A stretch of 21,485 nucleotides of DNA from an uncultured Candidatus Saccharibacteria bacterium (GCA_964612415.1 CAZTCT010000009.1:1-21485), one strand, 5' to 3'. Shown: positions 858 to 20,928, counted from the first letter of the stretch. Numbers and translations: made by a program. The notes: generated from the sequence alone by a model not told the origin.

Positions 858-1943
858 ATGGATACAACTAGTCTTGTTGCGGCAAGTTTGACTGCTGGGT
901 CATTTCTGGCAGGGCTCCAAACCCTACCCGAGGGACGGACTTTGGTCGTCAAATTTCTTGGTGGTGCTTTTGCAGTAAAGTTGTCGTACAGGGATCACAA
1001 ATTTCGATATCTGTGCGAACGATACAATCTTAAGCCCGACATCCATTACAGAGAAATTCCCAACCTCAGAGAGGATTACCGACATAAATGGGATATCCTT
1101 GAGCTCACACGAGCAGGAGTTACTGAAATTGAGTCACACTGGCGTGCCAGAATAAATTTCGGCGGCTTAGTGTGGGTTGGACCTTGGCCATTCTTTAAAG
1201 AAGACCGCCAACGATTCTCGTGGGTATCTTACGAACAGACCCGTCAGCAAGACGGGACGGTAGTGGATAAATTCGTTGGAAGAGAGCAGCTACAGGGATT
1301 CTTGCTCGCACAAAAGGATATCTACGCATCAGACATTAAAACAGTGTTGACTGCAGATAATTACCCAGTAGATGTCCTTATTCTGATGGATATTCATGTG
1401 GTAAATCCGTATAAAGCACGATTCCGGACACAGCATTGGCTTGAATACATTCATAACAATGTGCGCCCCATTATTCGTGCATACATACAGTCACATGAAT
1501 ACATACACCTTGCAAAAGAAGGTGGTGCAAGCGAAGAAGAACTCATGAAGCTTCTTCATGGGGAAAGAACTTCTACAAAAGGCGCTCATACCAACAAGAA
1601 AAACCTCTTGCAAGAATTTCTGGAGGCGAATGGTGCAAGTGTAAATAGTGTGAGAATCCTTGACATAGATCCAAACGAAAAGTACCAGAATATTCTCCTT
1701 TTAAAGGCTACCGGCCAAGCAGAAGCAGATCGTATACGCGCTAAGTACGAAGCAATAAAAGACTACGGCTCGAATGGCCTGCACATGCAATTCAATGAAG
1801 CTATCATTGAGGCATCAAAAGGCAATGCAAGTCTTTCTCTTTTTGCAGGTGACCGCACAGACGATTCTCGCATACTGCAAACGGCGGCTCAGCGCATCAT
1901 TAGTGAGCCCATGTCTATACACGCAGCAAGGAGACAGGCATGA
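858..1943 (+). CDS. SPFH/band 7 (stomatin/prohibitin/flotillin-like) domain membrane protein
   Basis: 361 aa; N-terminal hydrophobic anchor; TADNYPVDVLILMDIHVVNPYKARF resembles the SPFH T-x-D-N...v-x-y-r-V-x-dP-x-ka-x-f block; VRILDIDPNE then AEADRIRAKYEAIKDYG coiled/Ala-Glu-rich C-terminal part typical of band-7 proteins; stop overlaps next start (ATGA). Confidence 0.5.
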   Translation: MDTTSLVAASLTAGSFLAGLQTLPEGRTLVVKFLGGAFAVKLSYRDHKFRYLCERYNLKPDIHYREIPNLREDYRHKWDILELTRAGVTEIESHWRARINFGGLVWVGPWPFFKEDRQRFSWVSYEQTRQQDGTVVDKFVGREQLQGFLLAQKDIYASDIKTVLTADNYPVDVLILMDIHVVNPYKARFRTQHWLEYIHNNVRPIIRAYIQSHEYIHLAKEGGASEEELMKLLHGERTSTKGAHTNKKNLLQEFLEANGASVNSVRILDIDPNEKYQNILLLKATGQAEADRIRAKYEAIKDYGSNGLHMQFNEAIIEASKGNASLSLFAGDRTDDSRILQTAAQRIISEPMSIHAARRQA

Positions 1944-2839
1944 ACAGTGATTTGATTATTGTACTAGCAATCATCGCTGTAGTACTTTTCCTCAAGTGGT
2001 ACCCTATCTTGTGGCAAAGTGAGGAACCTACTAAAGGAAACGGAAAGGGTCTATCCCTCCTTGCTTCCGAGCTAGCAAAAAAGGCAGCTTCGTCTGGCTT
2101 CGTAGGCGTCTTGCTCATGATAGGTGGGATATTGTTGATGTTTTGGCAGCTTTTCCCTGACGCATGGAACTGGACGAATGAAGATAGCCACGCCGGTATT
2201 TTCTGGTCTGGACTCGTGCTTTTACTTCTTGTAATCGCATGGAGCACTTTCTCTGGGAACACAAGGTTTGTAATGTTCATTTTTGGTGTAGGCGCTTTGA
2301 TTTTGTTTAGCAAAGGACTCTATACAACCCTCTCCGATGAAGGACATGTAGGCGCATGTAAAGGCAAAAAAGGCGCTGAGCTCTCTCAGTGTGTTACCAG
2401 GCAGAAAACAGCTAGCAACACAACGAGAAACTCCCCGCCCGCAGCAAAGTCTTACTCCGCCACCACGATGCCAACATTCTGTTGGCGCCGAGAGCACATA
2501 GGGCCCGGTGCAAACCAGTCCACTTCTAGCAAGCCAGACTGCAGCGCCATTGTGACATATTTCAAGTACGAGAAGTCGCCAGACGACAACGTGTTTGTAC
2601 AACTTGAATATAAGTTACATGGAGCATCTGGAGTCGCAACTTTAGACACCCGGGTGAACCCCAATGTCGGTGGATGGACGCTCATGTCAGCAGATGGTCA
2701 GCAACTAGACGGCGGTGTATTTAAGATCGCCGAAGATGGAGATGGATATTCAGGAACCATGATTTCCTATTACGACGAGCGTGGCAATTTATTGCCCCGT
2801 GGAGAGTATGGGCAACTGCCCATAACAATTTCGTTTTAG
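1940..2839 (+). CDS. polytopic membrane protein (about 4 TM helices) with C-terminal extracytoplasmic domain; possible NfeD-like partner of the SPFH protein
   Basis: 299 aa; translationally coupled to the SPFH gene (4-bp overlap); SD AGGAG 8 nt upstream; four hydrophobic helices in the first 135 aa, then a soluble Gly/Asp-rich domain; NfeD assignment is by operon analogy only. Confidence 0.55.
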   Translation: MNSDLIIVLAIIAVVLFLKWYPILWQSEEPTKGNGKGLSLLASELAKKAASSGFVGVLLMIGGILLMFWQLFPDAWNWTNEDSHAGIFWSGLVLLLLVIAWSTFSGNTRFVMFIFGVGALILFSKGLYTTLSDEGHVGACKGKKGAELSQCVTRQKTASNTTRNSPPAAKSYSATTMPTFCWRREHIGPGANQSTSSKPDCSAIVTYFKYEKSPDDNVFVQLEYKLHGASGVATLDTRVNPNVGGWTLMSADGQQLDGGVFKIAEDGDGYSGTMISYYDERGNLLPRGEYGQLPITISF

Positions 2840-2849
2840 GAATTTGTCA

Positions 2850-2914
2850 CAGCTCGTCGCGTCTGAACAAAATATCGTTCAGACAGGAAAAAGCGACGAG
2901 CTGTTTTTCTTTTC
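2850..2914 (+). terminator. rho-independent terminator (nested hairpins) after the 1940..2839 gene
   Basis: Outer perfect 11-bp stem CAGCTCGTCGC / GCGACGAGCTG enclosing an inner 8-bp hairpin GTCTGAAC / GTTCAGAC, followed by TTTTTCTTTTC. Confidence 0.65.
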
Positions 2915-2924
2915 ATACAAAAAG

Positions 2925-2953
2925 AAAAAGCCTCGCGAATGCGAGGCCTTTTC
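2925..2953. terminator. bidirectional rho-independent terminator between convergent genes
   Basis: AAAAAG-CCTCGCG-AAT-GCGAGGC-CTTTT; A-run on one side and T-run on the other serve both the + operon and the minus-strand pilin-like array. Confidence 0.65.
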
Positions 2954-2968
2954 TAGAAAGTGGAGATT

Positions 2969-3265
2969 TTAGCGGAAGCACCTAGGGATTTGGTCCGTAA
3001 TGCCCGAATCAGCTCCAACCATCCGCGCGAGCAAACACATGATTGCAAATACAGCCATCATTAGGAACATTCCAACAATTCCCCACACCATGTGTCTTTT
3101 CCCTTTATCGCGCCCTTCGTCACTTTCCCCACTTCTTATGAAGTCAGCAACCCCCCAGAGAAAGAATACTACTGCTGCTGCGAAGAAGAATGTAATTAGT
3201 GGGTTTACGATATTATCGTAGAGCTTAACCATGAACCCACTGATATCAAACACTTGCGCTTCCAT
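2969..3265 (-). CDS. small two-helix membrane protein, VirB2/TrbC (T4SS pilin)-like paralog 6 (no signal peptide)
   Basis: 98 aa; hydrophobic helix FFFAAAVVFFLWGVADFI, charged loop RSGESDEGRDKGKR, second helix HMVWGIVGMFLMMAVFAIMCLL; C-terminal GITDQIPRCF motif shared with the 4260..4529 paralog. Confidence 0.6.
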   Translation of the reverse strand: MEAQVFDISGFMVKLYDNIVNPLITFFFAAAVVFFLWGVADFIRSGESDEGRDKGKRHMVWGIVGMFLMMAVFAIMCLLARMVGADSGITDQIPRCFR

Positions 3266-3300
3266 GCAATAATATTTCTTTGAAAGTTAGCGTGAGCTAG

Positions 3301-3669
3301 TTAGGGAAAGATAGGTGTTGGCGTTGTAGGTGCAGTCTGTGTTGAGTTATCAAGTGCAAGCTGGTTAGTAAGCAATGCTACCAAACCCCAGACAGACACC
3401 ATAACAGCGATTGCAACAATACCCCAAATGATCTTGCCGCGACCAGCTTTTTGCTTTTCAGCATCATCACCAGCAGTAACGTACTGGAATACACCGATGA
3501 TGAAAAGAAGGACTGCGAGCGCGATGATGAACGGAATCAACGCATTGATAAAGTTGTAGATCAGCTCAAGCAAGCCAGAAAGCGTTGTTACCGCAAATGC
3601 GACTGCAGGAGTAGCGAGTGCAAGTGCTGTAAGCGCTGCAAGAGCTGTTCCTTTTTGTGTACCTTTCAT
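3301..3669 (-). CDS. small secreted/membrane protein, VirB2/TrbC (T4SS pilin)-like paralog 5 (with signal peptide)
   Basis: 122 aa; signal peptide ending AVAFA; helix LIPFIIALAVLLFIIGVFQYVTAG, loop DDAEKQKAGRGK, helix IIWGIVAIAVMVSVWGLVALL; Pro/Thr-rich C-terminal tail. Confidence 0.6.
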   Translation of the reverse strand: MKGTQKGTALAALTALALATPAVAFAVTTLSGLLELIYNFINALIPFIIALAVLLFIIGVFQYVTAGDDAEKQKAGRGKIIWGIVAIAVMVSVWGLVALLTNQLALDNSTQTAPTTPTPIFP

Positions 3670-3769
3670 GAATAAAAAGTATGAAGATTAATGAATAAGC
3701 TAATAAGACCGTGCCCTAAATTTCCTGAACGCGCTTACGCGCATATCAGCAGCAAAAATGCCTTTTTAT

Positions 3770-3798
3770 ATGATATACAGAGTGAGGTTTTTGAGCAA
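3770..3798 (-). promoter_or_regulatory. candidate internal promoter of the pilin-like array (for 3301..3669 and downstream)
   Basis: On the minus strand TTGCTC (3798-3793), 15-16 nt spacer, TATATC (3775-3770), inside the only long (156 bp) intergenic gap of the array. Confidence 0.3.
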
Positions 3799-3825
3799 CC
3801 AGCAATGTGGATAGCTCGCGGGAAC

Positions 3826-4203
3826 TTACGGAATTGGCAAAACAGGGACATCAGGCACATTTGAATTGCTATCCTCAAGGCCAAAAGTAAGAAGGAGCAT
3901 GTTCACCAGACCCCATACTGACACCATCACCGCAAGACCAATGACCCCGTAGATGATAAGATCGCGCCCTTTCTTTCGAGCCTCTTCATTGTCCCCCGCC
4001 GCGACATACCGCAACACCCCAATGAGGAAAAGAAGTACTGCAAGACCGATGATGAGCCCTATTAATCCTTGCGCGATAGACCAAATGACACCGATAGCGC
4101 CCTGAATAGTGCCATCTCCTGCAGATCCTCCCGAAGTGAATGTAATGGTGGGGTCAGGGCCTCCGCCCGCTAACAAGTTGCTCAAATGTATTGAAAGATT
4201 CAT
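3826..4203 (-). CDS. small two-helix membrane protein, VirB2/TrbC (T4SS pilin)-like paralog 4
   Basis: 125 aa; Gly-rich N-terminal region without a classical signal peptide; helix IGLIIGLAVLLFLIGVLRYVAAG, loop DNEEARKKGRD, helix LIIYGVIGLAVMVSVWGLVNML; Pro-rich tail DVPVLPIP. Confidence 0.6.
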   Translation of the reverse strand: MNLSIHLSNLLAGGGPDPTITFTSGGSAGDGTIQGAIGVIWSIAQGLIGLIIGLAVLLFLIGVLRYVAAGDNEEARKKGRDLIIYGVIGLAVMVSVWGLVNMLLLTFGLEDSNSNVPDVPVLPIP

Positions 4204-4259
4204 AGTGCTTCTATTATCGCATGTAGCAACCGCCGTTAAAAAGTCCTCCTGTGTATAGC

Positions 4260-4529
4260 TTAAAATCCGGGAATAACATTATCTATCCCGAATGACGTGG
4301 TAATCAAACTTACCAACCCCCACACAGACATCATCACCGCAAGCCCAATAAGCCCAAAAATGATCTGATTTCTCCCCTTTGTGCGCTCCGATTCGTTCTC
4401 TCCAGATTTGATAAAGTTGACCACCCCGATGAAGAAATAAAGCACCGCGAGCGCTACAAAAAGCGCAGTGAGGGGAGAAAAAATGCCTTCAATGACGGCC
4501 TGGACTAGTGATTTGAAGTCAGTGATCAT
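4260..4529 (-). CDS. small two-helix membrane protein, VirB2/TrbC (T4SS pilin)-like paralog 3 (no signal peptide)
   Basis: 89 aa; helix LTALFVALAVLYFFIGVVNFIKSG, loop ENESERTKGRNQ, helix IIFGLIGLAVMMSVWGLVSLI; C-terminal GIDNVIPGF. Confidence 0.6.
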   Translation of the reverse strand: MITDFKSLVQAVIEGIFSPLTALFVALAVLYFFIGVVNFIKSGENESERTKGRNQIIFGLIGLAVMMSVWGLVSLITTSFGIDNVIPGF

Positions 4530-4531
4530 AT

Positions 4532-4903
4532 TTATTGAAGTGAATTAATGGTCTGGGTGATTACATTTGAAAGCACCTGTGCGCCAACGAGGATCGCAGT
4601 ACCTATAATCGCCCCTACAAAAGCACGCTTTGCGGTAGCAAGCTGCTGCTCGTTGCCCTTTGCCGTCACGAACATAAATCCTGCATAAATGAGGAATATT
4701 GCTGCAACAGGTATGCCAATAGTGATGATTATATCAATAATGGCTTTAATAAAATCTGGGAACGTAGGAACATTGATGGGGTTTTCGATCCCCCCGGCCG
4801 CAGCAAGTGACACTCTCGCCCACGTGAAAAATACCGCAAACGCACTCGTGATAATTGCTGCAAATTTGTTCAGGCTCTTCCTCATATTTTTTGTGTTAAG
4901 CAA
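4532..4903 (-). CDS. small secreted/membrane protein, VirB2/TrbC/TraA (T4SS pilin)-like paralog 2
   Basis: ORF-track start is TTG (4903); an in-frame ATG at 4885 gives MRKSLNKFAAIITSAFAVFFTWARVSLA as a signal peptide; helix IPVAAIFLIYAGFMFVTAKGNEQQ, loop, helix AFVGAIIGTAILVGAQVL; FMFVTAKGNE resembles the F-pilin TraA MYMMTKN motif. Confidence 0.6.
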   Translation of the reverse strand: MLNTKNMRKSLNKFAAIITSAFAVFFTWARVSLAAAGGIENPINVPTFPDFIKAIIDIIITIGIPVAAIFLIYAGFMFVTAKGNEQQLATAKRAFVGAIIGTAILVGAQVLSNVITQTINSLQ

Positions 4904-4950
4904 GCTCCATTATATCAGAATAAACTACCCTTTTTGGACATGGTGGGGAT

Positions 4951-5334
4951 TTATGGCGACAGATAATCGGCAGGGTTAAATCCACCTGGCCTGTCAAGAG
5001 ATGTAACAATAAAGTTGACAATCAGCCACGCAGAGAGTGCAATAACAAACCCAATAAATACATAGACAAAGATGCTCTTCGCTTTTGCGTGCTGAGCTTC
5101 ATTCCCTTTTGCGGTCATGTACATGAACCCTGCAACGGCAAAAGAGAGCGCGGCAAGAGGAGCGGCAATATCAAATATCAGAAAATTTATGACTCTTTGC
5201 GCCAAGATCACGAGGTCCTCAAAACTACAGTCTGGACCGTTGCAAGGCACAAGCTGCGCGTGCGCAGCTATGGGAATAAGCAGAACGATCAGAGTGACAG
5301 AAAGTATCGGAGCAAATAAGATGTATTTTTTCAT
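4951..5334 (-). CDS. small secreted/membrane protein, VirB2/TrbC/TraA (T4SS pilin)-like paralog 1
   Basis: 127 aa; signal peptide MKKYILFAPILSVTLIVLLIPIAAHA; helix IAAPLAALSFAVAGFMYMTAKGNE, loop AQHAKAKS, helix IFVYVFIGFVIALSAWLIVNFIV; starts 2 bp after the upstream gene. Confidence 0.6.
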   Translation of the reverse strand: MKKYILFAPILSVTLIVLLIPIAAHAQLVPCNGPDCSFEDLVILAQRVINFLIFDIAAPLAALSFAVAGFMYMTAKGNEAQHAKAKSIFVYVFIGFVIALSAWLIVNFIVTSLDRPGGFNPADYLSP

Positions 5335-5336
5335 AT

Positions 5337-6674
5337 TTACTCAATTTGAAGTGATCTAAATAGCTGGTCAAACTTCTGTCGTGCGCTACTGATAGCATTG
5401 AGGACCCTTTTCTCGTCGGACCCTACGTCATTCACAAGCTGTGCAAAAATATTATTTGTTTGTATTGGATCTGGATCAAACCAACTCTTGCTGATAAGTG
5501 CTGAACGGTAGAAGATGCTTGCTCGAGGATCTGTTCCAGGTGGAGCCGCGATCAATGCCTTTTGCGCAGGGGCCATGCTTTCCATTTGAGCAAAATTTTT
5601 GACTGCAGGAGAGTACGCAAGCCCTGTTGCCACCGCAAGAGTAAGGGGAGTGCCTTTTCCCTTGAGAATTGAGAGTCCGTACATGCGTCCAAAAGTAGTA
5701 GAGATGGTACTTCCTTCAAGTTGTGGCAGTATCGCAACGTCAAAATCTAGATGCGGATTCCTGCGAGCAATTTCGGGTGCTTCGCTTGCAAGCCCAAAGT
5801 AAATGGCAAGTTTCCCTGATGCAAACATTTCTTGAGCATCAGACAAGGAACGATTCCATGTGTAAGCAGGGCTGCTCTCTTTTGCAAATTGCAAATAAAA
5901 ACGCAGTACTGATGCTAGTGGCGCCTCACTTTCTCTGCTTGTAGCATCCTGCCCAAAATAAAGAGTTATCTTCCCTGTCGCTGGGTCACGCGCAATGATA
6001 CGATCTCCCGCCTGCAGCAAGAACGCTGAGAGAATCTCTTTTGCATCTGGAATATTCACATACTCCCCGAGACTAACCGCACTTTGCGCAATGCTCTTTG
6101 TGATTGGGTCAGAGAAGATAGTAAGCTGCGGAACAAGGGCGAAAAATTCCTCCCATTTCTCTGGCGGCCTGACAAGCCCCGCAGAAGAAAAGATGGAGCG
6201 ATTCCAGTACATGACGAGTGGGTCAACCACAAGGGGTAATGCTGCTACTTGATTGCTTGTTAGGTACATCTCACTTTGAGGAATGAAAGTGTCTTGAAAA
6301 TCTCGAATAGAGAGAACAAGCGGTTGTATCTTGAGTTGATGTCTTAAAAATCTATCTTGTGGAATGAGTATTATGTCAGGACCTGTGCCAACGGCGATTG
6401 CTTCAGCAAGCTGTCTATCTATGGTATCAGCAGTCTTCTCAACGTAATTCAGCGAGAGTTTCGTATCGTTTGGAAATGCCTCCTTCACAAGATCGTTAAA
6501 GTTATCCGCCGAGAGTGTACCCCATACAGTAACAGTACCCACCAGCCCTTGATCTTTTTTAGTCTCACTGGCAAACCATCCAAGCGAGAACGCCATCATG
6601 GCAAAAAAGGCGAAAAAGGCGAACGCACCTATGAGCGCTACCTGGAAAGGACTAAGTGACTTGAGTGAATTCAT
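5337..6674 (-). CDS. membrane-anchored extracellular solute-binding protein (SBP family 1-like); no cognate permease or ATPase in window
   Basis: 445 aa; N-terminal TM anchor; TVTVWGTLSADNFNDLVKEAFPNDTKLSLNYVEKTADTIDRQLAEAIAVGTGPDIILIPQD matches the start of family-1 SBPs (tvW...y..kl.ta.aag.gPDv). Confidence 0.5.
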   Translation of the reverse strand: MNSLKSLSPFQVALIGAFAFFAFFAMMAFSLGWFASETKKDQGLVGTVTVWGTLSADNFNDLVKEAFPNDTKLSLNYVEKTADTIDRQLAEAIAVGTGPDIILIPQDRFLRHQLKIQPLVLSIRDFQDTFIPQSEMYLTSNQVAALPLVVDPLVMYWNRSIFSSAGLVRPPEKWEEFFALVPQLTIFSDPITKSIAQSAVSLGEYVNIPDAKEILSAFLLQAGDRIIARDPATGKITLYFGQDATSRESEAPLASVLRFYLQFAKESSPAYTWNRSLSDAQEMFASGKLAIYFGLASEAPEIARRNPHLDFDVAILPQLEGSTISTTFGRMYGLSILKGKGTPLTLAVATGLAYSPAVKNFAQMESMAPAQKALIAAPPGTDPRASIFYRSALISKSWFDPDPIQTNNIFAQLVNDVGSDEKRVLNAISSARQKFDQLFRSLQIE

Positions 6675-6676
6675 AA

Positions 6677-7282
6677 CTATTGTCGCGCGCCATACTGATT
6701 GTTAAATGATATCGCCGCTCCGTTTGCTCCCGCCTTCTTAACAATGAATCCGTAATGCTGTCTTCCTGGCGCAATATCTTTTTCAAAAGAAAACCCTTTT
6801 GCTAAAAAGAGATGCTTGGCTTGATCTGCGGACAAAACCGCGCCCGCTTCAGGGCCCATCCCTCCATAAGACTCTTTCCAGTCAATCACAAGGACCTTGC
6901 CCCCTGGTTTTAAAATACGATCTATCTCAGAAACTGAGCCCTCCTTGTCCTCAAGCTGGAAAAGCACATTGGAAGCAATGACTGCGTCAACACTACTATC
7001 CGCAAGCTTTGTGCCTCCACGCCTCTCGATGTCACCCCATATTGCTTCAACATTTGAAAGCCCCTCTTTGGAAGCAGCGTTCTTCACGCGAATTGCCAAA
7101 TCTTTCTGCACTTCAATTGCATACACTTTGCCAAAATCGCGCACGCGACGAGCTGCTGCAACGGTGTACGCACCAGAGCCGGCGCCAAGATCGGCGACCG
7201 TCATATGTGCAGTCAGTCCAAATTGCTCCAGATTTTTATCCGGATCGGAAAACATTGCTTGTATTATATCTCCTAAAGACAA
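6677..7282 (-). CDS. class I SAM-dependent methyltransferase
   Basis: Motif [13 protein letters not shown] and post-motif [12 protein letters not shown]; ORF-track start is TTG (7282, overlapping the gyrA stop by 10 bp); alternative ATG at 7255 gives no overlap. Confidence 0.7.
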
Positions 7283-9726
7283 ACGAGCGAAGCGATGCTA
7301 TCCCCAGGTCGCAATTTCATGATGCGAACTCCTTGAGTTTGTCGTCCAAGACACGGCACACTTGCAAGATCTGTTCTGATGACCTGACTCTTCTTTGAAA
7401 TCGCTACGATCTCTTCGTATTCATCAGTAACGACTTGCGCTGCCATTATTTTGCCAGTCTTTGCGGTAACCTTTGCGGTCTTGATACCTGACCCTCCTCG
7501 CTTCTGAGTCTTATACTCTTTGGCAGATGTGCGCTTCCCAAAACCATTCTGACTGAGTACTAAAATATCCGTCGCTCCTTCGGCGCCCTTCTTGATGATA
7601 TCCACTCCGACAATGTGGTCGCCTTTACCGAGCTTCATTGCGCGCACGCCACCAGCGCCACGTCCCATTTCTCTAATATCACTCTCTTTGAAGCGTACAG
7701 ATTGCCCATTGGCAGTGATGAGAATGACTTCATCGCCCTTCTCGACAAATCGCGCAGCAAGCAACTCGTCCTTTGGAGCCAACTTAATGGCGATCAGCCC
7801 GCCTCTTCGTACATCACGGAAGCTTTTTGCGGCTACCTTTTTTGCGGTGCCCTCTTTTGTCACCATAAGAAGCGAGAGGTTCTCCTGCTTTTTTGTCTCT
7901 TTTGGTACTGCAAGGATCGAGCTTACATGCTCTTCGCCAGAAAGTGAGAGGAAGTTCATTACTGACTTACCACGAGTGGCGCGCTTTCCTTCCGGAATAT
8001 CATACATTTTGATCTGATACGCCTTTCCTTTGTCAGAGAAAAAGAGCAAATCATTGTGAGTGCTTGTGCTAAGGAAGTGCGTAATAAAATCCTCTTCTTT
8101 TGTATGTAAATCAACGATACCTACCCCTCCCCGCTTTTGTTTTCGATATTCAGATGGATTGGTGCGCTTTATATAGCCTCCTCCGGTGAACACAAGCACT
8201 GATTCTTCATCGGGGATCATGTCCTCAACAGAGATTTCTTTCGCACCGTGCTTGACGATCTTTGTACGGCGCTCGTCATTGTACTTCTCTTTGATGGCAA
8301 GAAGCTCATCTTTCACCACACCCATGATCTTCTTAGGGCTTCCGAGAAGCTCTTTAAGAGCCTTAATGAGTTCTTTCTTTTCTTTGAGCTCGTCCTCAAT
8401 CGCTTTGCGCTCAAGACCGGCGAGCTTCTGGAGGCGCATATCAAGAATCGCCACTGCCTGTCGCTCGGAGAATTTAAACTCCTTCATCAAGTTCTGCTGC
8501 GCTGTGGGAGTATCTTTTGAGCGCTTAATGACCTTGATGACCTCATCAATATGGTCAAGTGCTTTTTTGAGCCCTTCAAGAATGTGTGCGCGTTCTTCCG
8601 CCTTACGAAGATCATACTCCGCGCGTCGGATTACAACCACCTTGCGATGTTTTACAAATTCACCAAGGATGGACTTGAGAGAAAGCGTCTGTGGCTCCCC
8701 GTCTACAAGTGCAACAAGGTTGAAGTGGAATGAGGTCTCAAGATCAGTGTGCTTGTACAGCGCGTTAAGAACTTTCTGTGGATATGCCCCGCTCTTGAGG
8801 TCAATAACCACACGAATATCTCTTGTGGATTCATCGCGAAGGTTTTTGATACCTTCTACTTTTTTGTCGCGTACAAGGTCAGCAATCTGCACCACGAGAT
8901 CAGACTTGTTCACACGAAAAGGAATAGAGGTGATGACGATTTGATCATGAGACTTTGCCTCTACTATTTCCGCTACTCCACGCACCACTACACCTCCTCG
9001 CCCAGAGGCATACGCATGTCGCAAGTCGCTCTCTCCAAACACAATACCTCCCGTTGGGAAGTCAGGACCTTTCACGTAAGTAAGGAGATCTTCGGTTGTT
9101 GCATTTGGATCGTCAATAAGATGCGCACACGCATCCACCACTTCACCCAGATGATGCGGAGGAACATTCGTCGCCATACCGACAGCAATACCAAGCGTCC
9201 CATTAAGAAGAAAATTGGGTACTGCCGCAGGCAAAACGATTGGTTCCTTGAGACGCCCATCATAGTTGGGACGCCAGTCAACAGTCTCTTTCTCAAGATC
9301 AGCGAGCATTTCTCCTGCAAGACGAGACATTTTTGCCTCCGTATAACGCATAGCTGCTGGGGCATCACCGTCAATTGAACCAAAGTTACCCTGTCCAAGT
9401 ACAAGAGGATAGCGTGTTGCAAAAGTCTGTGCGATCTTGACCATCGCATCATATACAGACGCATCGCCATGCGGGTGATACTTACCAAGCACATCACCAA
9501 CGACTGTCGCCGATTTGCGGAACTTGGCATTTGAGGTAAGGCCCGCTTCATACATCGCATAAAGGATGCGGCGATGTACTGGTTTGAGCCCGTCGCGCAC
9601 ATCAGGAAGCGCACGAGAAGTGATGACCGACATCGCATAGTCGAGATAAGAGGCCTGCATTTCGGCCGTAATATCAATTGGGAGAATCCTTTCCTGTCCT
9701 TCGTCTTTACGCGGTTCGTCAGCCAT
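7273..9726 (-). CDS. gyrA: DNA gyrase subunit A
   Basis: 817 aa; [32 protein letters not shown], active-site region [34 protein letters not shown], and C-terminal GyrA-box QKRGGSGI (supports GyrA over ParC). Confidence 0.92.
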
Positions 9727-12177: not shown

Positions 12178-12210
12178 ATAAAAAACCTCGCCACATGGCG
12201 AGGTTTTTTA
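12178..12210. terminator. bidirectional rho-independent terminator between rpsA and pth
   Basis: AAAAAA-CCTCGCC-ACAT-GGCGAGG-TTTTTT. Confidence 0.7.
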
Positions 12211-12810
12211 TTTGACTCCCTCGTTTTGAGAGAAAAGACTCAACGCCTTATCTTTCCCATGTCGAATAAATAATCCAAGGGCACGATCAACGTCTTTCGC
12301 GACTGCCAGGAGCCCTTGTTCATCTTTTTTGCCAAATGGAGAAAGCAAGAAAGCTTCCACTGCCTGCTCCCCTTTTGGTTTTTTCACATGTCCAAAGAGG
12401 CTGCGGTGCAAAATGCCCACACGAACTCGAAAAAAATCTCTGGTTCCAAGTTCATCAATGACTGATTGTACGCCTCGATGCCCCCCAGAACCTCGTCCAA
12501 ACGACAGTTTTATCTCGCCCAGCGGTATATCGAGATCGTCATACACCAAAACGAGCGCCACTTCTTGTTCTCGGGCAATAATCTTCTTAATCACTGTCCC
12601 TGAAATATTCATGAACCGCTCTGGGAATGCGAAAGTGACATTATTATCTTCAAGTGTTCCTTGTGAGGTGAGTGCTCCAGCGCCATCAGTTCTCCACTCT
12701 GAGAAGCCATGTGCTTTTCTTATTTCTTCCAGCACGATCCGCCCCGCGTTATGTCGCGTTCGTTCATATGTTTTCCCTGGATTCCCAAGCCCAACTACCA
12801 AATACAGCAT
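12208..12810 (-). CDS. pth: peptidyl-tRNA hydrolase
   Basis: LVVGLGNPGKTYERTRHNAG N-terminal signature; GHRGVQS; 200 aa. Confidence 0.9.
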   Translation of the reverse strand: MLYLVVGLGNPGKTYERTRHNAGRIVLEEIRKAHGFSEWRTDGAGALTSQGTLEDNNVTFAFPERFMNISGTVIKKIIAREQEVALVLVYDDLDIPLGEIKLSFGRGSGGHRGVQSVIDELGTRDFFRVRVGILHRSLFGHVKKPKGEQAVEAFLLSPFGKKDEQGLLAVAKDVDRALGLFIRHGKDKALSLFSQNEGVK

Positions 12811-12850
12811 ATTGAGGCAATTGTATCACGACCGATAAAAGAAAAGCTTC

Positions 12851-12879
12851 TTGCTCCACAAAATATTTTGCATTATGAT
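12851..12879 (+). promoter_or_regulatory. candidate promoter for lepB-hisS
   Basis: TTGCTC (12851-12856), 17-nt spacer, TATGAT (12874-12879) in the divergent pth/lepB gap. Confidence 0.45.
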
Positions 12880-12894
12880 GTATGCACTAGAAAA

Positions 12895-13512
12895 ATGCCT
12901 CCAGACTCTTCCATCCCTGAACAAGATCTAAACCCTTCGGCTCCACCACCACCCCGCCAGAGCACAGGCCTTCTTTTTGCTAAAGAAATATTCAAGTTTT
13001 TCCTCCTCGTCCTCATGGTCGTAGTGCCAATCCGCCTTTTTGTGGCACAGCCATTTATTGTCTCAGGTCCTTCTATGGAGCCCACCTTCTCTACTCGTAA
13101 TTACTTAATCATTGATGAGCTCTCATATCACCTACGATCCCCCGCCAGAGGAGAAGTGATTGTTCTTGAGGACCCAAGAAATACTGCCCTCTTCTTGATC
13201 AAGCGAGTTATCGGTCTCCCGGGAGACATAATTGACATTGAAGGAGGGCTAGTGAAGATCACGGACGACGAACATCCTGAAGGATTCTTTATTGACGAGC
13301 CGTATATCAGCGCCCCTGGTGGAGAGGGAGAATACTCACATGTTGAATTAGGAGAAAACCAATATTTTGTAATGGGAGACAATCGCCCTTACAGTCTTGA
13401 TTCAAGGGCGCTCGGACCTGTATCGGAAAACTTGATCGTAGGACGGGCATTGCTTCGCCTCTTGCCCATCAGCCAAGCAGCTGTATTGCCTGGGAATTAT
13501 AAAGAGGAATAA
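12895..13512 (+). CDS. lepB: signal peptidase I
   Basis: SGPSMEPT (catalytic Ser box), KRVIGLPGD, GDNRPYSLDSR boxes; start moved to the first ATG (12895) downstream of the divergent pth gene. Confidence 0.85.
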   Translation: MPPDSSIPEQDLNPSAPPPPRQSTGLLFAKEIFKFFLLVLMVVVPIRLFVAQPFIVSGPSMEPTFSTRNYLIIDELSYHLRSPARGEVIVLEDPRNTALFLIKRVIGLPGDIIDIEGGLVKITDDEHPEGFFIDEPYISAPGGEGEYSHVELGENQYFVMGDNRPYSLDSRALGPVSENLIVGRALLRLLPISQAAVLPGNYKEE

Positions 13513-19581: not shown

Positions 19582-20928
19582 CTACTTTCTAAACCCCTGG
19601 AGATTCCAAGAGGACACTGCGCACACATTATCCTGACATCCACATTTCCAAGAGGAGTTTTGGTATAGCACGCACACATATGCAGCAAAGAAGTTCTGGG
19701 TTTGCTGTTCTGCTGTCGTCATGGATTCTATACGTTCTCCTTTGCCAATAATCCAAAGCCCTCCTCCAGCTGTTGTTGCCCCTGTTAAATTAATCGGCAC
19801 CCAGTCACGTGCATTTTTTGTGTAGTAAGCTTGGTGCCAAACATATGTTGTTGGTTGTCCATTCCCTGCTGAAAATGTAACCTGAGTATTTGTGCCTCCA
19901 CAAAGCACATTTAAAATGAGCTCTTTCGCAGTACTAAAGATATTATACGCCACTCCGTAACCAGCTGGCGTTGTTGTTGTATTGGTATACGAATTACAAA
20001 AACCTCCCCCACCCCCAGAAGGAGCTGGTGCTCCTCCCGCAGGTGCCACTTCTGCATAACTTGAATTCGCATCACCAATGCGATATTCGTCATGATATAC
20101 AGAACGTCGGGGTTCATCTGCGTCTTCTGGATGAATATCGTCTCTCCACCATGCCTTGTAATCACCTATTTTCCAGTAAGGTCCTAAGGTATCGTGTGGC
20201 ATATTTTTGCCATAATAACTATGTACCAACACGCCGTCCTTCCAAATCTCCATTATTCCATTGTCATCATATGTCCATTTCACATGAATAACCCAGTCGT
20301 ACCACTTATCGTGCTCAACAACTCCAGAAAGGTTGTAGTCACCATAATTTGTCTCAATTCTCCATATCAAATTACCGCTCTGTTTCCTGCCAAGTCCTGG
20401 CTCTGGCATTGTCGCGATAATAAGTGGGTAACAGTCCCCACAGAACTCTTGTGCTGTGAGCGAATCCAGATTGGCATGCCATTGATAGATCATATCCCTA
20501 TCCCATGGGACCCCTCCTCCACTATTCCTGAAAGCGTATTCAGATGATGGGAAATAAACACTGAAGCCGATCCAGAACTCCTTACCGTTCCAATTTTTCT
20601 CTGCAAGACGAGCGTTGCTTGGAGAGGTCACTTCTGATCTCCAGGCAGCCTGCATGTCCGTGCCAACTGTTGAACGAAGATAGTATTGTCCTGCTCGTGC
20701 TGGAACATTATTCTCCACAGCTCTCGATGGTCCAGGAGGATTACCGTCGTGGCAGGTATATTTTCCATTTGGATTACTACCAGCTACCCCCTGGCATGGC
20801 TGGTCATCCCAATCAATCGTTCCTGATTCAAATCCATCATAAAAAAGGAGTGCCGCCTGAGCTGGAACCGGCATAAACCAAGTGAAAAGAGTGACCGCCG
20901 CAAACAACAGTGAGATGATAAGATTCAT
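19582..20928 (-). CDS. secreted ConA-like polysaccharide lyase family (PF14099-like) protein with Gly/Pro/Ala linker and Cys-rich C-terminal module
   Basis: Signal peptide ...PVPAQA; ALLFYDGFESGTIDW; FWIGFSVYFP; YQWH; CGDCYPLI; KWYDWVIHVKWTYDDNGIMEIWKDGVLV; GPYWKIGDYK; VYHDEYRIGD...SYAEVAP, matching remembered hallmarks of the heparin-lyase-I-like ConA-fold lyase family; linker APAGGAPAPSGGGGG then a 150-aa C-terminal domain with CGC..C cluster. Confidence 0.55.
   Translation of the reverse strand: MNLIISLLFAAVTLFTWFMPVPAQAALLFYDGFESGTIDWDDQPCQGVAGSNPNGKYTCHDGNPPGPSRAVENNVPARAGQYYLRSTVGTDMQAAWRSEVTSPSNARLAEKNWNGKEFWIGFSVYFPSSEYAFRNSGGGVPWDRDMIYQWHANLDSLTAQEFCGDCYPLIIATMPEPGLGRKQSGNLIWRIETNYGDYNLSGVVEHDKWYDWVIHVKWTYDDNGIMEIWKDGVLVHSYYGKNMPHDTLGPYWKIGDYKAWWRDDIHPEDADEPRRSVYHDEYRIGDANSSYAEVAPAGGAPAPSGGGGGFCNSYTNTTTTPAGYGVAYNIFSTAKELILNVLCGGTNTQVTFSAGNGQPTTYVWHQAYYTKNARDWVPINLTGATTAGGGLWIIGKGERIESMTTAEQQTQNFFAAYVCVLYQNSSWKCGCQDNVCAVSSWNLQGFRK

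What the first reader, a model, noticed from the sequence alone, without database searches (positions are those of the whole stretch)
2969..5334. Tandem array of six divergent VirB2/TrbC/TraA-like mini-pilin paralogs with no secretion machinery nearby
Six consecutive, co-oriented small ORFs (89-127 aa) share one architecture: a hydrophobic helix, a 10-14 residue K/R/D/E loop (SGE[SN][DE]E.R.KG[KR] in four of them, TAKGNE[QA]Q in two), and a second Gly-punctuated hydrophobic helix. This two-helix design is that of conjugative or T4SS pilins (VirB2, TrbC, F-pilin TraA). The FMYMTAKGNE / FMFVTAKGNE blocks specifically recall the TraA MYMMTKN segment. Three paralogs carry cleavable-looking signal peptides and three start directly at the first helix. 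No VirB4/VirB6/VirD4, relaxase or prepilin peptidase lies within 21 kb; the flanking genes are a solute-binding-like protein, a methyltransferase and gyrA. Six diversified copies in a housekeeping neighbourhood suggest an orphan or re-purposed pilin-like surface filament, or antigenically variable cell-surface system, in a probable episymbiont-type lineage. This is not a described operon type.
Basis: partly seen in the sequence, partly recalled or inferred. Interest (0 to 1): 0.8.

Follow-up and report, generated by a model that had tools for sequence, protein, structure and literature searches.

The report
VirB2-like pilin array, Patescibacteria chromosome
Six small adjacent genes encode divergent copies of a secretion-system pilin typical of ultra-small Patescibacteria; such arrays are already published and are essential in one cultured species, so this is an ordinary new member, notable only for a conserved position next to gyrA and a sugar-binding-protein gene.

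Summary
Six co-oriented minus-strand ORFs (2969-5334, 89-127 aa) are homologous two-helix membrane hairpins. All six pass the curated cut-off of Pfam PF18895 (T4SS_pilin). The two at the 5' end also pass PF04956 (TrbC/VirB2).

The lineage guess is right: this is a Patescibacteria genome of class Paceibacteria, close to Yonathbacteria.

The novelty claim is wrong. Tandem arrays of 2-11 divergent VirB2-like pilins in Patescibacteria are published (Microb Genom 2025). A six-gene PF18895 array is essential in Southlakia epibionticum (Cell 2023).

"No machinery nearby" holds for the window, but the window is a complete 21.5-kb MAG contig. Most Yonathbacteria draft genomes are scored VirB4-positive.

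What I add:
- The block MBL-gyrA-methyltransferase-(MalE-like, membrane-anchored SBP)-pilin array is conserved in 66 of 80 Paceibacteria species, with no VirB4 within about 10 kb.
- The SBP stop and the first pilin start are typically 4 nt apart.
- Paralogs 1, 2 and 6 keep position-specific orthologs. Paralogs 3-5 are lineage-specific duplicates.
- The published survey does not list these gyrA-linked arrays.

Verdict: a new member of a known kind, of modest interest.

The parts
4951..5334 (-). Pilin paralog d1 (127 aa), B-type (TrbC-like). It has a signal peptide ending AHA, then a conserved Cys-x5-Cys-x-Phe motif (QLVPCNGPDCSF) and the loop TAKGNEAQ.
   Evidence: PF18895 39.2 bits and PF04956 30.1 bits, both above their cut-offs. 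Position-1 orthologs share the Cys motif. In 40 of 66 loci the best hit scores above d1's best own paralog.
4532..4903 (-). Pilin paralog d2 (123 aa from TTG; more likely 117 aa from the ATG at 4885), B-type. It has a signal peptide ending SLA, a conserved N-P-I motif and the loop TAKGNEQQ.
   Evidence: PF18895 33.4 bits and PF04956 32.7 bits, both above their cut-offs. The Logan gene call is 117 aa. Position-2 orthologs score above the best own paralog in 57 of 66 loci.
4260..4529 (-). Pilin paralog d3 (89 aa), A-type, with no signal peptide. It is a helical hairpin.
   Evidence: PF18895 41.7 bits. AlphaFold2 model with pLDDT 81.6 and helices 2-41 and 46-79. Its closest relatives are its own paralogs d4 and d5.
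3826..4203 (-). Pilin paralog d4 (125 aa), A-type, with a 35-residue G/S/T/P-rich N-terminal extension.
   Evidence: PF18895 39.0 bits. Hydropathy. 47-51% identical to d5 and d3. Interpreted as a lineage-specific duplicate.
3301..3669 (-). Pilin paralog d5 (122 aa), A-type, with a signal peptide ending AFA and a Thr/Pro-rich C-terminal tail.
   Evidence: PF18895 34.4 bits. Hydropathy. Closest to d4.
2969..3265 (-). Pilin paralog d6 (98 aa), the terminal A-type paralog, with no signal peptide and the loop SGESDEGRDKGKR.
   Evidence: PF18895 27.8 bits, just above the cut-off of 26.6. In 46 of 62 loci the best hit beats d6's best own paralog; in five of the eight loci examined that hit was the last gene of the array.
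5337..6674 (-). Membrane-anchored MalE-type solute-binding protein (445 aa; N-terminal TM helix 9-30). It lies immediately upstream of d1 with a 2-nt gap and is the conserved partner of the array.
   Evidence: SBP_bac_1 and SBP_bac_8 above their cut-offs. AlphaFold2 pLDDT 91.2. Foldseek hits to MalE, GacH and other sugar SBPs at E about 2e-20. Present upstream of the array in 68 of 80 loci. Median gap from its stop to the first pilin ATG is 4 nt over 66 loci.
6677..7282 (-). Class I SAM-dependent methyltransferase. It lies between gyrA and the SBP gene in what appears to be the same tightly packed transcription unit. No role in pilin biology is shown.
   Evidence: Methyltransf_31, _11 and _25 hits. 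Present in this position in 67 of 80 loci. 2-nt gap to the SBP gene; it overlaps the gyrA stop if the TTG start is used.
7273..9726 (-). gyrA, the first recognisable gene of the conserved block gyrA-MTase-SBP-pilins.
   Evidence: DNA_topoisoIV 540 bits plus six DNA_gyraseA_C repeats. Synteny shown.
2923..2954 (-). Intrinsic-terminator-like hairpin (14-bp stem, 7 GC pairs, followed by a T-run) 15 nt after the d6 stop. It marks the likely end of the transcription unit and is bidirectional with the convergent + strand genes.
   Evidence: Terminator scan and sequence. This is a consensus match only; function is inferred.

Best explanation
The six genes are a chromosomal array of VirB2-like (Pfam T4SS_pilin) pilin paralogs in a Patescibacteria bacterium of class Paceibacteria, close to Ca. 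Yonathbacteria. This is the same kind of array already described in Patescibacteria and shown to be essential in Southlakia epibionticum.

Shown:
- Family membership.
- The two-helix hairpin architecture.
- Tight packing behind gyrA, a methyltransferase and a membrane-anchored MalE-like SBP, ending at a terminator-like hairpin.
- Conservation of this block across the class.
- A fixed array order: two TrbC-like pilins first, then a variable number of A-type pilins, then a terminal short A-type pilin.

Inferred, by analogy with VirB2/TraA and with the S. epibionticum system:
- Each protein is inserted into the cytoplasmic membrane by Sec/YidC, with the charged loop in the cytoplasm.
- Signal peptides, where present, are removed by signal peptidase I.
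- The hairpins are then extracted and polymerised by the lineage's chromosomal monoderm-type T4SS (VirB4, TrsD, VirB3/PrgI, VirB6), which is encoded elsewhere in the genome.
- The product is a heteromeric pilus-like filament or conduit at the interface with the host cell.
- The position-conserved paralogs (d1, d2, d6) are specialised subunits. The duplicated middle ones (d3-d5) are the bulk or adaptable subunits.

The role of the co-transcribed SBP is unknown. My guess is that it binds host-surface or host-derived glycan at the same interface.

The confidence of 0.6 is for the whole mechanism. Family membership alone I would put at about 0.95.
For: Family:
- All six pass the PF18895 cut-off, and d1 and d2 also pass PF04956.
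- The A-type and B-type profiles are homologous (hhalign 98.7%, E 1.9e-16).
- The family is very large: 28,718 representatives at E <= 1e-3.

Architecture: hydropathy and the hairpin model.

Lineage: GyrA is 72-74% identical to Yonathbacteria and other Paceibacteria.

Known kind:
- PMC12102498 reports 441 arrays of 2-11 VirB2-like genes, with mean identity 25% and maximum 54%. Here the range is 16-51%.
- S. epibionticum SEML1_0014-0019 are six tandem PF18895 genes. Two of them also hit PF04956. All are essential in Tn-seq (review).

Machinery elsewhere is plausible:
- The window is a whole 21,485-bp contig.
- 7 of the 9 Yonathbacteria drafts read from Table S1 are VirB4-positive, and 3 of 5 mapped array-bearing genomes are VirB4-positive.
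- In that survey the pilin gene lies away from virB4 in 813 of 1,948 assemblies.

Operon and conservation:
- Synteny in 66 of 80 species loci and in two long JGI contigs.
- Median SBP-to-pilin gap of 4 nt.
- Terminator-like hairpin after d6.

Specialised subunits:
- Positional orthology of d1, d2 and d6.
- Paralog-specific motifs.
- All six have one-to-one orthologs at 72-93% identity on short contigs from closely related organisms.
Against: - No VirB4, VirB6, VirB3 or TrsD lies in the window. None lies within about 10 kb of the array in any of the 80 related loci or the 2 JGI contigs.
- Two array-bearing draft genomes are scored VirB4-negative in the published table. They are Yonathbacteria RIFOXYC2_FULL_47_9 (828 kb, the closest named relative) and Parcubacteria GW2011_GWA2_43_11 (929 kb). 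A VirB4-independent role is therefore not excluded.
- No filament has been seen for any Patescibacteria VirB2-like protein. The review says only 'potential to elaborate conjugative pili'.
- Covalently fused 2-7-domain versions exist. These would be harder to extract from a membrane than single hairpins.
Confidence: 0.6

Rival explanations
1. VirB4-independent module. The hairpin proteins, together with the co-transcribed membrane-anchored MalE-like SBP, form a membrane-embedded oligomer (ring or pore) or a self-assembling surface structure for capturing or taking up host-derived carbohydrate. They have no need of a T4SS ATPase.
For: - Class-wide, tight coupling of the SBP gene to the first pilin gene (68 of 80 loci; median gap 4 nt).
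- No ABC permease or ATPase sits next to the SBP.
- No T4SS gene lies within about 10 kb in any relative.
- Two array-bearing drafts are scored VirB4-negative.
- Tandem-fused 2-7-hairpin proteins recall ring-forming hairpins such as duplicated ATPase c-subunits. In the published structure-based annotation, one S. epibionticum pilin has an ECOD hit to the F1F0 ATP synthase c subunit.
Against: - The family is defined by homology to TrbC/VirB2.
- In S. epibionticum the equivalent array sits inside the T4SS cluster and shares its essentiality.
- In other Paceibacteria a PF18895 gene lies two genes from virB4.
- The VirB4-negative calls come from draft assemblies. The 2-of-5 rate is close to the share of 'No' entries among Paceibacteria drafts in the same table.
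- Adjacency to an SBP gene alone shows co-expression, not physical partnership.
Confidence: 0.15
2. Antigenic or host-range variation system. The copies are interchangeable variants that diversify rapidly, so the exposed surface can change.
For: - Low identity between copies (16-51%).
- d3-d5 look like lineage-specific duplicates.
- The array copy number varies from 2 to 8 between species.
- The published survey raises this idea by analogy with Bartonella and Anaplasma virB2 paralogs.
Against: - d1, d2 and d6 keep position-specific orthologs and their own motifs across species whose GyrA is only 64-74% identical.
- Between close relatives the pilins (72-90% identity) change about as fast as the neighbouring SBP (91%). 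In a more distant pair they are more conserved than the SBP (73-77% against 68%).
- All six have intact starts within one tightly packed co-oriented unit.
- DNA repeats are limited to a 67-nt stretch at 61-73% identity. There are no flanking inverted repeats and no silent cassettes.
Confidence: 0.06
3. Unrelated small membrane proteins (holins, bacteriocin-immunity proteins or similar) that resemble pilins only because both are two-helix hairpins. A variant of this is leftover genes from a decayed conjugative element.
For: - A two-helix hairpin is a generic design, and the fold search cannot tell it apart from others.
- d6 passes the PF18895 cut-off by only 1.2 bits.
Against: - No holin or immunity family appears among the Pfam hits at E <= 1, whereas PF18895 is the top hit for all six.
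- NCBIfam's best hit for all six is a pilin-like conjugal-transfer protein.
- The block is conserved in a housekeeping context in 66 of 80 species, with no integrase or relaxase nearby. Base composition is uniform at 0.43-0.50 GC. That does not fit a decaying mobile element.
Confidence: 0.04

Closest known systems
Pilin array SEML1_0014-0019 of Candidatus Southlakia epibionticum ML1 (Saccharimonadia). Wang et al., Cell 2023, PMC10633639; reviewed in PMC12857230.
   Same: Six tandem, co-oriented small genes (312-558 bp). All are PF18895, and two also hit PF04956. The sequences are divergent but the structures are conserved. The host is a chromosomal Patescibacteria genome.
   Different: There the array lies inside the T4SS cluster (SEML1_0006-0019), next to VirB4, PrgI and VirB6-like genes, and Tn-seq shows it to be essential. 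Here it sits behind gyrA, a methyltransferase and an SBP gene, with no T4SS gene in the contig and no experimental data. The TrbC-like pair is last there and first here.
VirB2-like pilin arrays of Patescibacteria surveyed by Quinonero-Coronel et al., Microb Genom 2025 (PMC12102498).
   Same: 2-11 tandem PF18895/PF04956 genes, mean identity 25% and maximum 54%, on the chromosome with no relaxase. This array has six genes at 16-51% identity.
   Different: Those arrays were recorded near virB4 (Fig. S9 ring 5) and were reported as most abundant in Microgenomatia and Saccharimonadia. The gyrA-linked Paceibacteria array is not listed. For GCA_000998805.1, where I find five pilin ORFs (L058), Table S3 shows one I_traR hit and no PF18895 entries. 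The paper does not mention gyrA or solute-binding proteins.
VirB2 / TrbC pilins of diderm conjugative and effector T4SSs (Pfam PF04956; Agrobacterium VirB2, RP4 TrbC).
   Same: The design is shared: signal peptide, two hydrophobic helices and a charged loop. d1 and d2 pass the family's curated cut-off.
   Different: d3-d6 do not reach PF04956. The host here is a monoderm. No VirB5, VirB7, VirB9 or VirB10 context is present. There is no detectable sequence similarity to any solved pilin. Cyclisation and other maturation steps are unknown.
Tandem virB2 paralogs of obligate intracellular Alphaproteobacteria (Bartonella, Anaplasma), as cited in PMC12102498.
   Same: Several divergent virB2 copies lie side by side in a host-dependent bacterium with a reduced genome.
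   Different: Those belong to diderm MPF-T systems and are thought to serve immune evasion. Here the positional orthology and ordinary evolutionary rates argue for specialised subunits instead.
Mbov_0395 / MMCAP2_0565 pilin-like conjugal transfer protein of Mycoplasma ICEs (NCBIfam NF045849).
   Same: It is the best NCBIfam match for all six ORFs (E 1.9e-8 to 3.6e-4), aligned over nearly the whole 80-position model. It is a monoderm system of the MPF-FATA world.
   Different: The scores (20-34 bits) are below the family cut-off of 40, so these ORFs are not members. The match only hints at a wider monoderm pilin-like superfamily.

Membership tests
Pfam PF18895 T4SS_pilin | Whole-protein HMM score at or above the curated gathering score (26.6 bits). 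| tested here: met
   27.8, 34.4, 39.0, 41.7, 33.4 and 39.2 bits for the ORFs at 2969, 3301, 3826, 4260, 4532 and 4951. The precomputed annotation of the same proteins agrees.
Pfam PF04956 TrbC/VirB2 pilin | Whole-protein HMM score at or above the gathering score (27.9 bits). | tested here: inconclusive
   Met by d2 (32.7 bits) and d1 (30.1 bits). Not met by the other four; the best is d5 at 10.8 bits, E 0.58. The four A-type genes connect to the B-type only through PF18895 and hhalign.
F-type pilin TraA | Detectable sequence similarity to TraA (Pfam TraA model, or solved F or pED208 pilins). | tested here: not met
No TraA family among the Pfam hits at E <= 1. No pilin chain among the PDB sequence hits at E <= 10 for d1, d2 or the A-type profile.
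VirB2-type T4SS pilin (functional class) | Two hydrophobic helices joined by a short charged loop (helical hairpin). | tested here: met
   Hydropathy segments in all six. AlphaFold2 hairpin for d3 with pLDDT 81.6. The feature is necessary but generic.
VirB2-type T4SS pilin (functional class) | N-terminal Sec signal peptide removed by signal peptidase I. | tested here: inconclusive
   d1, d2 and d5 have an n-h-c pattern ending AHA, SLA and AFA, and this is conserved in orthologs of d1 and d2. d3, d4 and d6 lack it. No dedicated predictor was available. A signal peptidase I gene lies at 12709-13512.
VirB2-type T4SS pilin (functional class) | Encoded together with VirB4 and other mating-pair-formation genes. 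| tested here: not met
   No T4SS domain in any window ORF. None within about 10 kb in 80 related loci and 2 long metagenome contigs, apart from a VirD4-like coupling protein in L009, which lacks the array. The rest of the genome could not be examined.
VirB2-type T4SS pilin (functional class) | Polymerises into an extracellular pilus, dependent on VirB4. | not testable with these tools
   This needs multimer modelling, proteomics or cryo-ET. No filament has been demonstrated for any Patescibacteria homolog.
Patescibacteria VirB2-like pilin array (PMC12102498; PMC10633639) | Two to eleven tandem pilin genes, allowing at most one intervening gene, with low mutual identity. | tested here: met
   Six consecutive genes with gaps of 2-156 nt. 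Identity 16-51%, against a published mean of 25% and maximum of 54%.
Patescibacteria VirB2-like pilin array (PMC12102498; PMC10633639) | Host genome is Patescibacteria. | tested here: met
   All 80 best GyrA loci are Patescibacteria MAGs. The top hits are Yonathbacteria at 72-74% identity. Gene order is shared with them.
Patescibacteria VirB2-like pilin array (PMC12102498; PMC10633639) | Located near virB4 (within 20 CDSs), as in the published arrays. | tested here: not met
   No virB4 among the three ORFs between the array and one contig end or the ORFs over 16 kb on the other side, nor in relatives. This differs in location, not in kind. The same paper finds pilin genes away from virB4 in 813 of 1,948 assemblies.
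NCBIfam NF045849 Mbov_0395 pilin-like conjugal transfer protein | Score at or above the curated cut-off (40 bits). | tested here: not met
   20.1-33.9 bits.
Type IV pilin (T4P, prepilin-peptidase dependent) | Class III signal peptide with the G|F/M-T-L-x-E cleavage motif, followed by a single N-terminal hydrophobic helix. | tested here: not met
   Direct reading of the six sequences shows no such motif and two hydrophobic helices instead of one. No T4P pilin family appears among the Pfam hits.
Holins / bacteriocin immunity proteins | Match to any holin or immunity family model. | tested here: not met
   None among the Pfam hits at E <= 1 or the NCBIfam hits at E <= 0.01.

The most novel reading that the evidence does not exclude
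The gyrA-linked operon (membrane-anchored MalE-like sugar-binding protein plus 4-8 VirB2-like hairpin proteins) is a distinct, class-wide organelle of Paceibacteria that works without, or only loosely with, the VirB4 machinery. One possibility is a heteromeric hairpin filament or pore, coupled to a glycan receptor, that senses or imports host-derived carbohydrate. The evidence that leaves this open:
- The block persists in two fairly large draft genomes scored VirB4-negative.
- It is never next to T4SS genes in any of the loci examined.
- Related arrays include covalently fused poly-hairpins and hairpins carrying C-terminal domains of about 600 aa.
Probability: 0.12. Interest if true: 0.7.

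Novelty: new member of a known kind. Interest (0 to 1): 0.3.

Why it matters
Patescibacteria make up a large share of bacterial diversity, and how they attach to and feed on host cells is mostly unknown. Their T4SS and its VirB2-like pilin array are essential in the one species tested. They are also the only case in which a monoderm T4SS is proposed to build a pilus. This window adds nothing new in kind.

The comparison does show three things about Paceibacteria, the best-sampled class:
- Most of the pilin repertoire sits in a conserved operon away from virB4, welded to a MalE-like binding-protein gene.
- The array has a fixed frame of specialised paralogs and a variable middle.
- A survey centred on virB4 misses these arrays.

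That gives a concrete candidate partner (the SBP) and a subunit-specialisation hypothesis to test once a Paceibacteria culture becomes genetically tractable.

Tried and rejected
- Sequence searches of d1, d2 and the A-type profile against all PDB chains found no pilin.
- Finding VirB4 in the same genome was not possible. The window is the entire contig. The only other copy is a shorter Logan contig.
- I looked for VirB4 among all ORFs of 450 aa or more in the 80 related loci. I clustered them and ran Pfam on ten of the unclustered or small-cluster candidates; the remaining unclustered ORFs were not scanned. This found only one VirD4-like coupling protein, in L009, a locus that lacks the array. 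ORFs of 611, 652 and 702 aa with Walker A motifs had no Pfam hit and are not VirB4 by that test.
- I tried to correlate array presence with VirB4 presence using the published Table S1. Only five array-bearing genomes could be mapped by name (3 Yes, 2 No). That is too few to decide, and later rows of the table are truncated.
- Kuroda et al. 2022 (PMC9763046) on a Paceibacteria 'pilin' cluster concerns type IV pili (pilBCDMT), not VirB2-like proteins. It is irrelevant here.
- I considered a decayed mobile element and rejected it. Composition is uniform, the flanks are housekeeping genes and the synteny is class-wide.
- I looked for extra or relic pilin fragments in the intergenic gaps by scoring six-frame pieces of 20 aa or more with the HMM. 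Only the six genes scored.
- The promoter scan gave no more sites than shuffled sequence (7 against 6.6 +/- 2.5), so I make no promoter claim.

Full report
**1. What is in the sequence**

The region 2969-5334 holds six consecutive minus-strand ORFs. In the direction of transcription I call them:
- d1: 4951-5334, 127 aa
- d2: 4532-4903, 123 aa from a TTG. The Logan assembly aa from the ATG at 4885.
- d3: 4260-4529, 89 aa
- d4: 3826-4203, 125 aa
- d5: 3301-3669, 122 aa
- d6: 2969-3265, 98 aa

The gaps between them are 47, 2, 56, 156 and 35 nt. Each protein has two hydrophobic stretches flanking a short charged loop. Pairwise identity is 16-51%.

They fall into two subfamilies (alignment A1):
- B-type (d1, d2), with the loop TAKGNE[AQ]Q.
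- A-type (d3-d6), with loops such as SGENESERTKGR.

Scoring six-frame translated pieces of 20 aa or more from 2801-5400 with the HMM found no seventh copy or relic.

At DNA level the only repeat is a 67-nt stretch encoding helix 2 of d3, d4 and d5, at 61-73% identity. There are no long identical repeats and no flanking inverted repeats.

**2. Family assignment**

[quoted passage not shown] The A-type and B-type profiles are homologous by hhalign (98.7%, E 1.9e-16).

NCBIfam gives every one of the six the same best match, below its cut-off: the Mycoplasma ICE 'Mbov_0395 pilin-like conjugal transfer protein' (20-34 bits, cut-off 40). d3 and d5 also have faint hits to the IncI1 TraQ pilin.

Nothing supports a link to F-pilin TraA. 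No TraA model appears at E <= 1, and no solved pilin is hit at E <= 10.

The family is very large. There are 28,718 cluster representatives at E <= 1e-3 and 8,380 at E <= 1e-10 among 1.84 billion representatives.

**3. Surroundings and organism**

The rest of the window is housekeeping:
- On one side of the array: an SPFH protein and a 299-aa membrane protein.
- On the other side: the SBP-like gene (5337-6674), a class I methyltransferase (6677-7282), gyrA (7273-9726), an MBL-fold protein, ribosomal protein S1, Pth, signal peptidase I (12709-13512), HisS, YbeY, FtsA, FtsZ, TrxB and a polysaccharide lyase.

No VirB4, VirB6, VirD4, relaxase or integrase domain is present. GC content is even at 0.43-0.50.

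The window's own proteins are on record with a longest contig of 21,485 bp. The window is therefore a whole MAG contig, and 'nothing within 21 kb' says nothing about the rest of the genome.

All 80 best GyrA matches among GTDB species representatives are Patescibacteria. The closest are Ca. Yonathbacteria and unnamed Paceibacteria at 72-74% identity.

**4. The block is conserved across the class**

I scanned the 80 GyrA loci with an HMM of the six ORFs and with the window's other proteins.
- 66 loci carry 1-8 pilin-like ORFs downstream of gyrA on the same strand. Many that carry fewer or none end within about 3 kb of gyrA, but at least five (L009, L052, L059, L070, L071) have 2-10 kb of downstream sequence and still lack the array.
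- The order is almost always MBL - gyrA - methyltransferase - SBP - pilins. The SBP gene is present in 68 loci and the methyltransferase in 67.
- Two long JGI metagenome contigs (185 and 198 kb) show the same order.
- The distance from the SBP stop to the first ATG of the first pilin ORF has a median of 4 nt over 66 loci, with many -4 and -1 overlaps. In the window it is 2 nt.
- gyrA, the methyltransferase and the SBP gene are equally tightly packed. A strong terminator-like hairpin (2923-2954) follows d6.

Co-transcription is inferred from this packing, not shown.

Downstream of the arrays, the relatives carry IF-2, RbfA, an aminotransferase, ClpB and lineage-specific unknowns. None carries T4SS genes. 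Among all ORFs of 450 aa or more in the loci, the ten candidates I scanned with Pfam yielded only one T4SS-related hit: a VirD4-like coupling protein in L009, a locus that lacks the array.

**5. Anatomy of the array**

The position of a gene in the array predicts which window paralog it resembles.
- The first two genes match d1 and d2.
- The last gene matches d6 most often (29 loci), and d3 in a further 21.
- The middle genes match d3, d4 and d5.

d1, d2 and d6 score higher against genes in other genomes than against their best paralog in their own genome. This holds in 40, 57 and 46 of about 65 loci respectively. d3, d4 and d5 are almost always closest to each other.

Position-1 orthologs share a Cys-x(4-12)-Cys-x-[FY] motif directly after an AxA-type signal-peptide end (AHA|QLVPCNGPDCSF in the window). 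Position-2 orthologs share an N-P-[ILF] motif.

All six window paralogs have one-to-one orthologs at 72-93% identity on short contigs from closely related organisms. Where the neighbouring SBP is 91% identical, the five pilins assigned to the same contig are 72-90% identical. In a more distant relative the SBP is 68% identical and the d4 and d5 orthologs are 73-77%.

I conclude three things:
- The array has an old, fixed frame of specialised subunits: two TrbC-like pilins first and a short A-type pilin last.
- The middle has expanded by lineage-specific duplication.
- The genes are not hypervariable.

This argues against an antigenic-variation cassette system and for non-redundant subunits.

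**6. The partner gene**

The SBP-like protein models confidently (pLDDT 91.2). It has an N-terminal transmembrane helix (residues 9-30) followed by a two-lobed MalE-type fold. The closest solved structures are maltose/maltodextrin, acarbose (GacH), sucrose and beta-glycoside binding proteins (E about 2e-20, TM 0.65-0.78). Its homologs are all Paceibacteria proteins of about 430-445 aa. No ABC permease or ATPase lies nearby. Its function in this operon is unknown.

**7. Comparison with what is known**

- PMC12102498 (Microb Genom 2025) searched 3,035 Patescibacteria genomes with PF04956, PF18895 and CONJScan profiles. It found VirB2-like pilins in 1,948 VirB4-positive assemblies, near virB4 in 1,135 of them. 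[quoted passage not shown]
- Wang et al. [quoted passage not shown] Their tables list SEML1_0014-0019 as six tandem 312-558-bp genes. All are PF18895, two also hit PF04956, and all are scored essential.

What differs here is location. The published arrays are those near virB4 (legend of Fig. S9). They are said to be most abundant in Microgenomatia and Saccharimonadia. The paper does not mention gyrA or solute-binding proteins.

In its Table S3, Paceibacteria genomes show a single PF18895 gene two genes from virB4. For GCA_000998805.1, where I find five pilin ORFs behind gyrA-MTase-SBP (L058), the table lists one I_traR hit and no PF18895 entries.

I found no other paper in the searchable library on this arrangement. 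The gyrA-linked, SBP-coupled array of Paceibacteria thus appears not to have been pointed out. That is a modest addition within a known kind.

**8. Is the machinery elsewhere?**

I could not test this for the organism itself. In the published Table S1, 7 of the 9 Yonathbacteria drafts I read are VirB4-positive.

Five array-bearing genomes could be mapped by name:
- VirB4-positive: Zambryskibacteria 02_FULL_43_14, Nomurabacteria 01_FULL_39_18 and Campbellbacteria 02_35_12.
- VirB4-negative: Yonathbacteria RIFOXYC2_FULL_47_9 (828 kb) and Parcubacteria GW2011_GWA2_43_11 (929 kb).

All are drafts, and roughly a third of the Paceibacteria drafts in the part of the table I read are also scored 'No'. 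The data therefore fit a T4SS encoded elsewhere, but they do not prove it.

**9. Most likely mechanism**

This is inference from established VirB2/TraA biology and from the S. epibionticum data.
- The six proteins are inserted into the cytoplasmic membrane as hairpins with the charged loop inside.
- d1, d2 and d5 lose a signal peptide to signal peptidase I.
- A VirB4-driven monoderm-type T4SS encoded elsewhere extracts them and assembles a heteromeric pilus-like filament or conduit towards the host cell.
- d1, d2 and d6 serve as specialised (initiating, tip or adaptor) subunits. d3-d5 serve as bulk subunits.

I put this at about 0.6.

The main rival, at about 0.15, is a VirB4-independent membrane or surface assembly working with the SBP. 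The evidence behind it:
- The invariant SBP coupling.
- The complete absence of T4SS genes from any of the related loci, apart from the coupling protein in L009.
- The two VirB4-negative drafts.
- The existence of covalently fused 2-7-hairpin proteins.

Antigenic variation (about 0.06) and non-pilin small membrane proteins or element remnants (about 0.04) are disfavoured for the reasons given above.

**10. Verdict**

This is a new member of a known kind. Interest is about 0.3. The value lies in the class-wide gyrA-MTase-SBP-pilin synteny and in the evidence for subunit specialisation, not in the existence of the array.

Noticed in passing
window 2969-9726; loci L002-L081 downstream of gyrA; L082, L083: The gene order MBL-gyrA-methyltransferase-(MalE-like SBP)-pilin array is conserved in 66 of 80 Paceibacteria species representatives and in two long JGI contigs. 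The SBP stop and the first pilin ATG are a median of 4 nt apart. The published T4SS survey of Patescibacteria does not list these arrays. For GCA_000998805.1 (L058), its Table S3 shows only one I_traR hit.
   Followed up: yes
L035:15142-16158, L014:15726-16556, L029:15395-16075 and five other loci; proteins P0241, P0288, P0294: Some relatives have single ORFs with 2-3 pilin hairpin domains joined by G/S/N/P linkers of about 30 aa. These are always A-type domains and always follow the d1-like and d2-like genes. In the representative library the top hits to the A-type profile are proteins with 2-7 hairpin domains, up to 606 aa. Covalent poly-pilins have implications for how, and whether, these subunits are extracted from the membrane.
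   Followed up: partly
L075:14369-16639 and L075:17213-19219; also long first or last array ORFs in L014, L015, L033, L065, L069 and L074: In some arrays a PF18895 hairpin sits at the N-terminus of a 670-760-aa protein whose remaining 550-600 residues or so have no Pfam match. This may be a pilin-anchored surface domain (an adhesin-like display).
   Followed up: partly
window 5230-5262 (d1 residues 25-35) and 4780-4800 (d2 residues 35-41); alignment A3: There are paralog-specific conserved motifs. Position-1 pilins have two cysteines (C-x4-12-C-x-F/Y) right after the signal-peptide end, suggesting a disulfide loop at the mature N-terminus. Position-2 pilins have an N-P-[ILF] motif at the same place.
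   Followed up: partly
all six ORFs, window 2969-5334: The best NCBIfam match for every ORF is the Mycoplasma ICE 'Mbov_0395 pilin-like conjugal transfer protein' (NF045849; 20-34 bits, below the 40-bit cut-off). This hints that monoderm MPF-FATA-type elements do have VirB2-like proteins. That bears on the published question of where the Patescibacteria pilins came from.
   Followed up: no
L009:18966-21581: L009 is one of the few gyrA loci without the SBP-pilin block. About 6.5 kb downstream of gyrA it carries an 872-aa VirD4-like coupling protein (TrwB_AAD_bind, TraG-D_C) with a treble-clef zinc finger.
   Followed up: no
window upstream of 9726 (gyrA), 4903 (d2) and 4203 (d4): TATAAT- or GATAAT-like boxes lie only 8-12 nt upstream of these start codons, and no Shine-Dalgarno-like sequence is evident before any of the nine genes. 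This suggests leaderless or very short-leader transcripts and internal promoters. The generic promoter scan was not above the shuffled expectation.
   Followed up: no
window 858-1943 (+) and 1940-2839 (+): An SPFH/Band 7 protein and an overlapping 299-aa multi-pass membrane protein with no family match lie convergent to the array. An SPFH gene recurs directly after the array in the closest relatives (L003, L054, L083) but not class-wide.
   Followed up: partly
window 19582-20928 (-): A 448-aa protein with a Polysacc_lyase domain (93 bits) lies in an otherwise housekeeping stretch. It is possibly a host-envelope-degrading enzyme of an epibiont.
   Followed up: no
window 12709-13512 (+) and 12208-12810 (-): The longest ORF for signal peptidase I overlaps the Pth gene by about 100 nt. 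The Logan gene call is 205 aa, so the true start is probably near 12895. Signal peptidase I is the enzyme class expected to process the three pilins that carry signal peptides, but here it belongs to the conserved housekeeping block.
   Followed up: no
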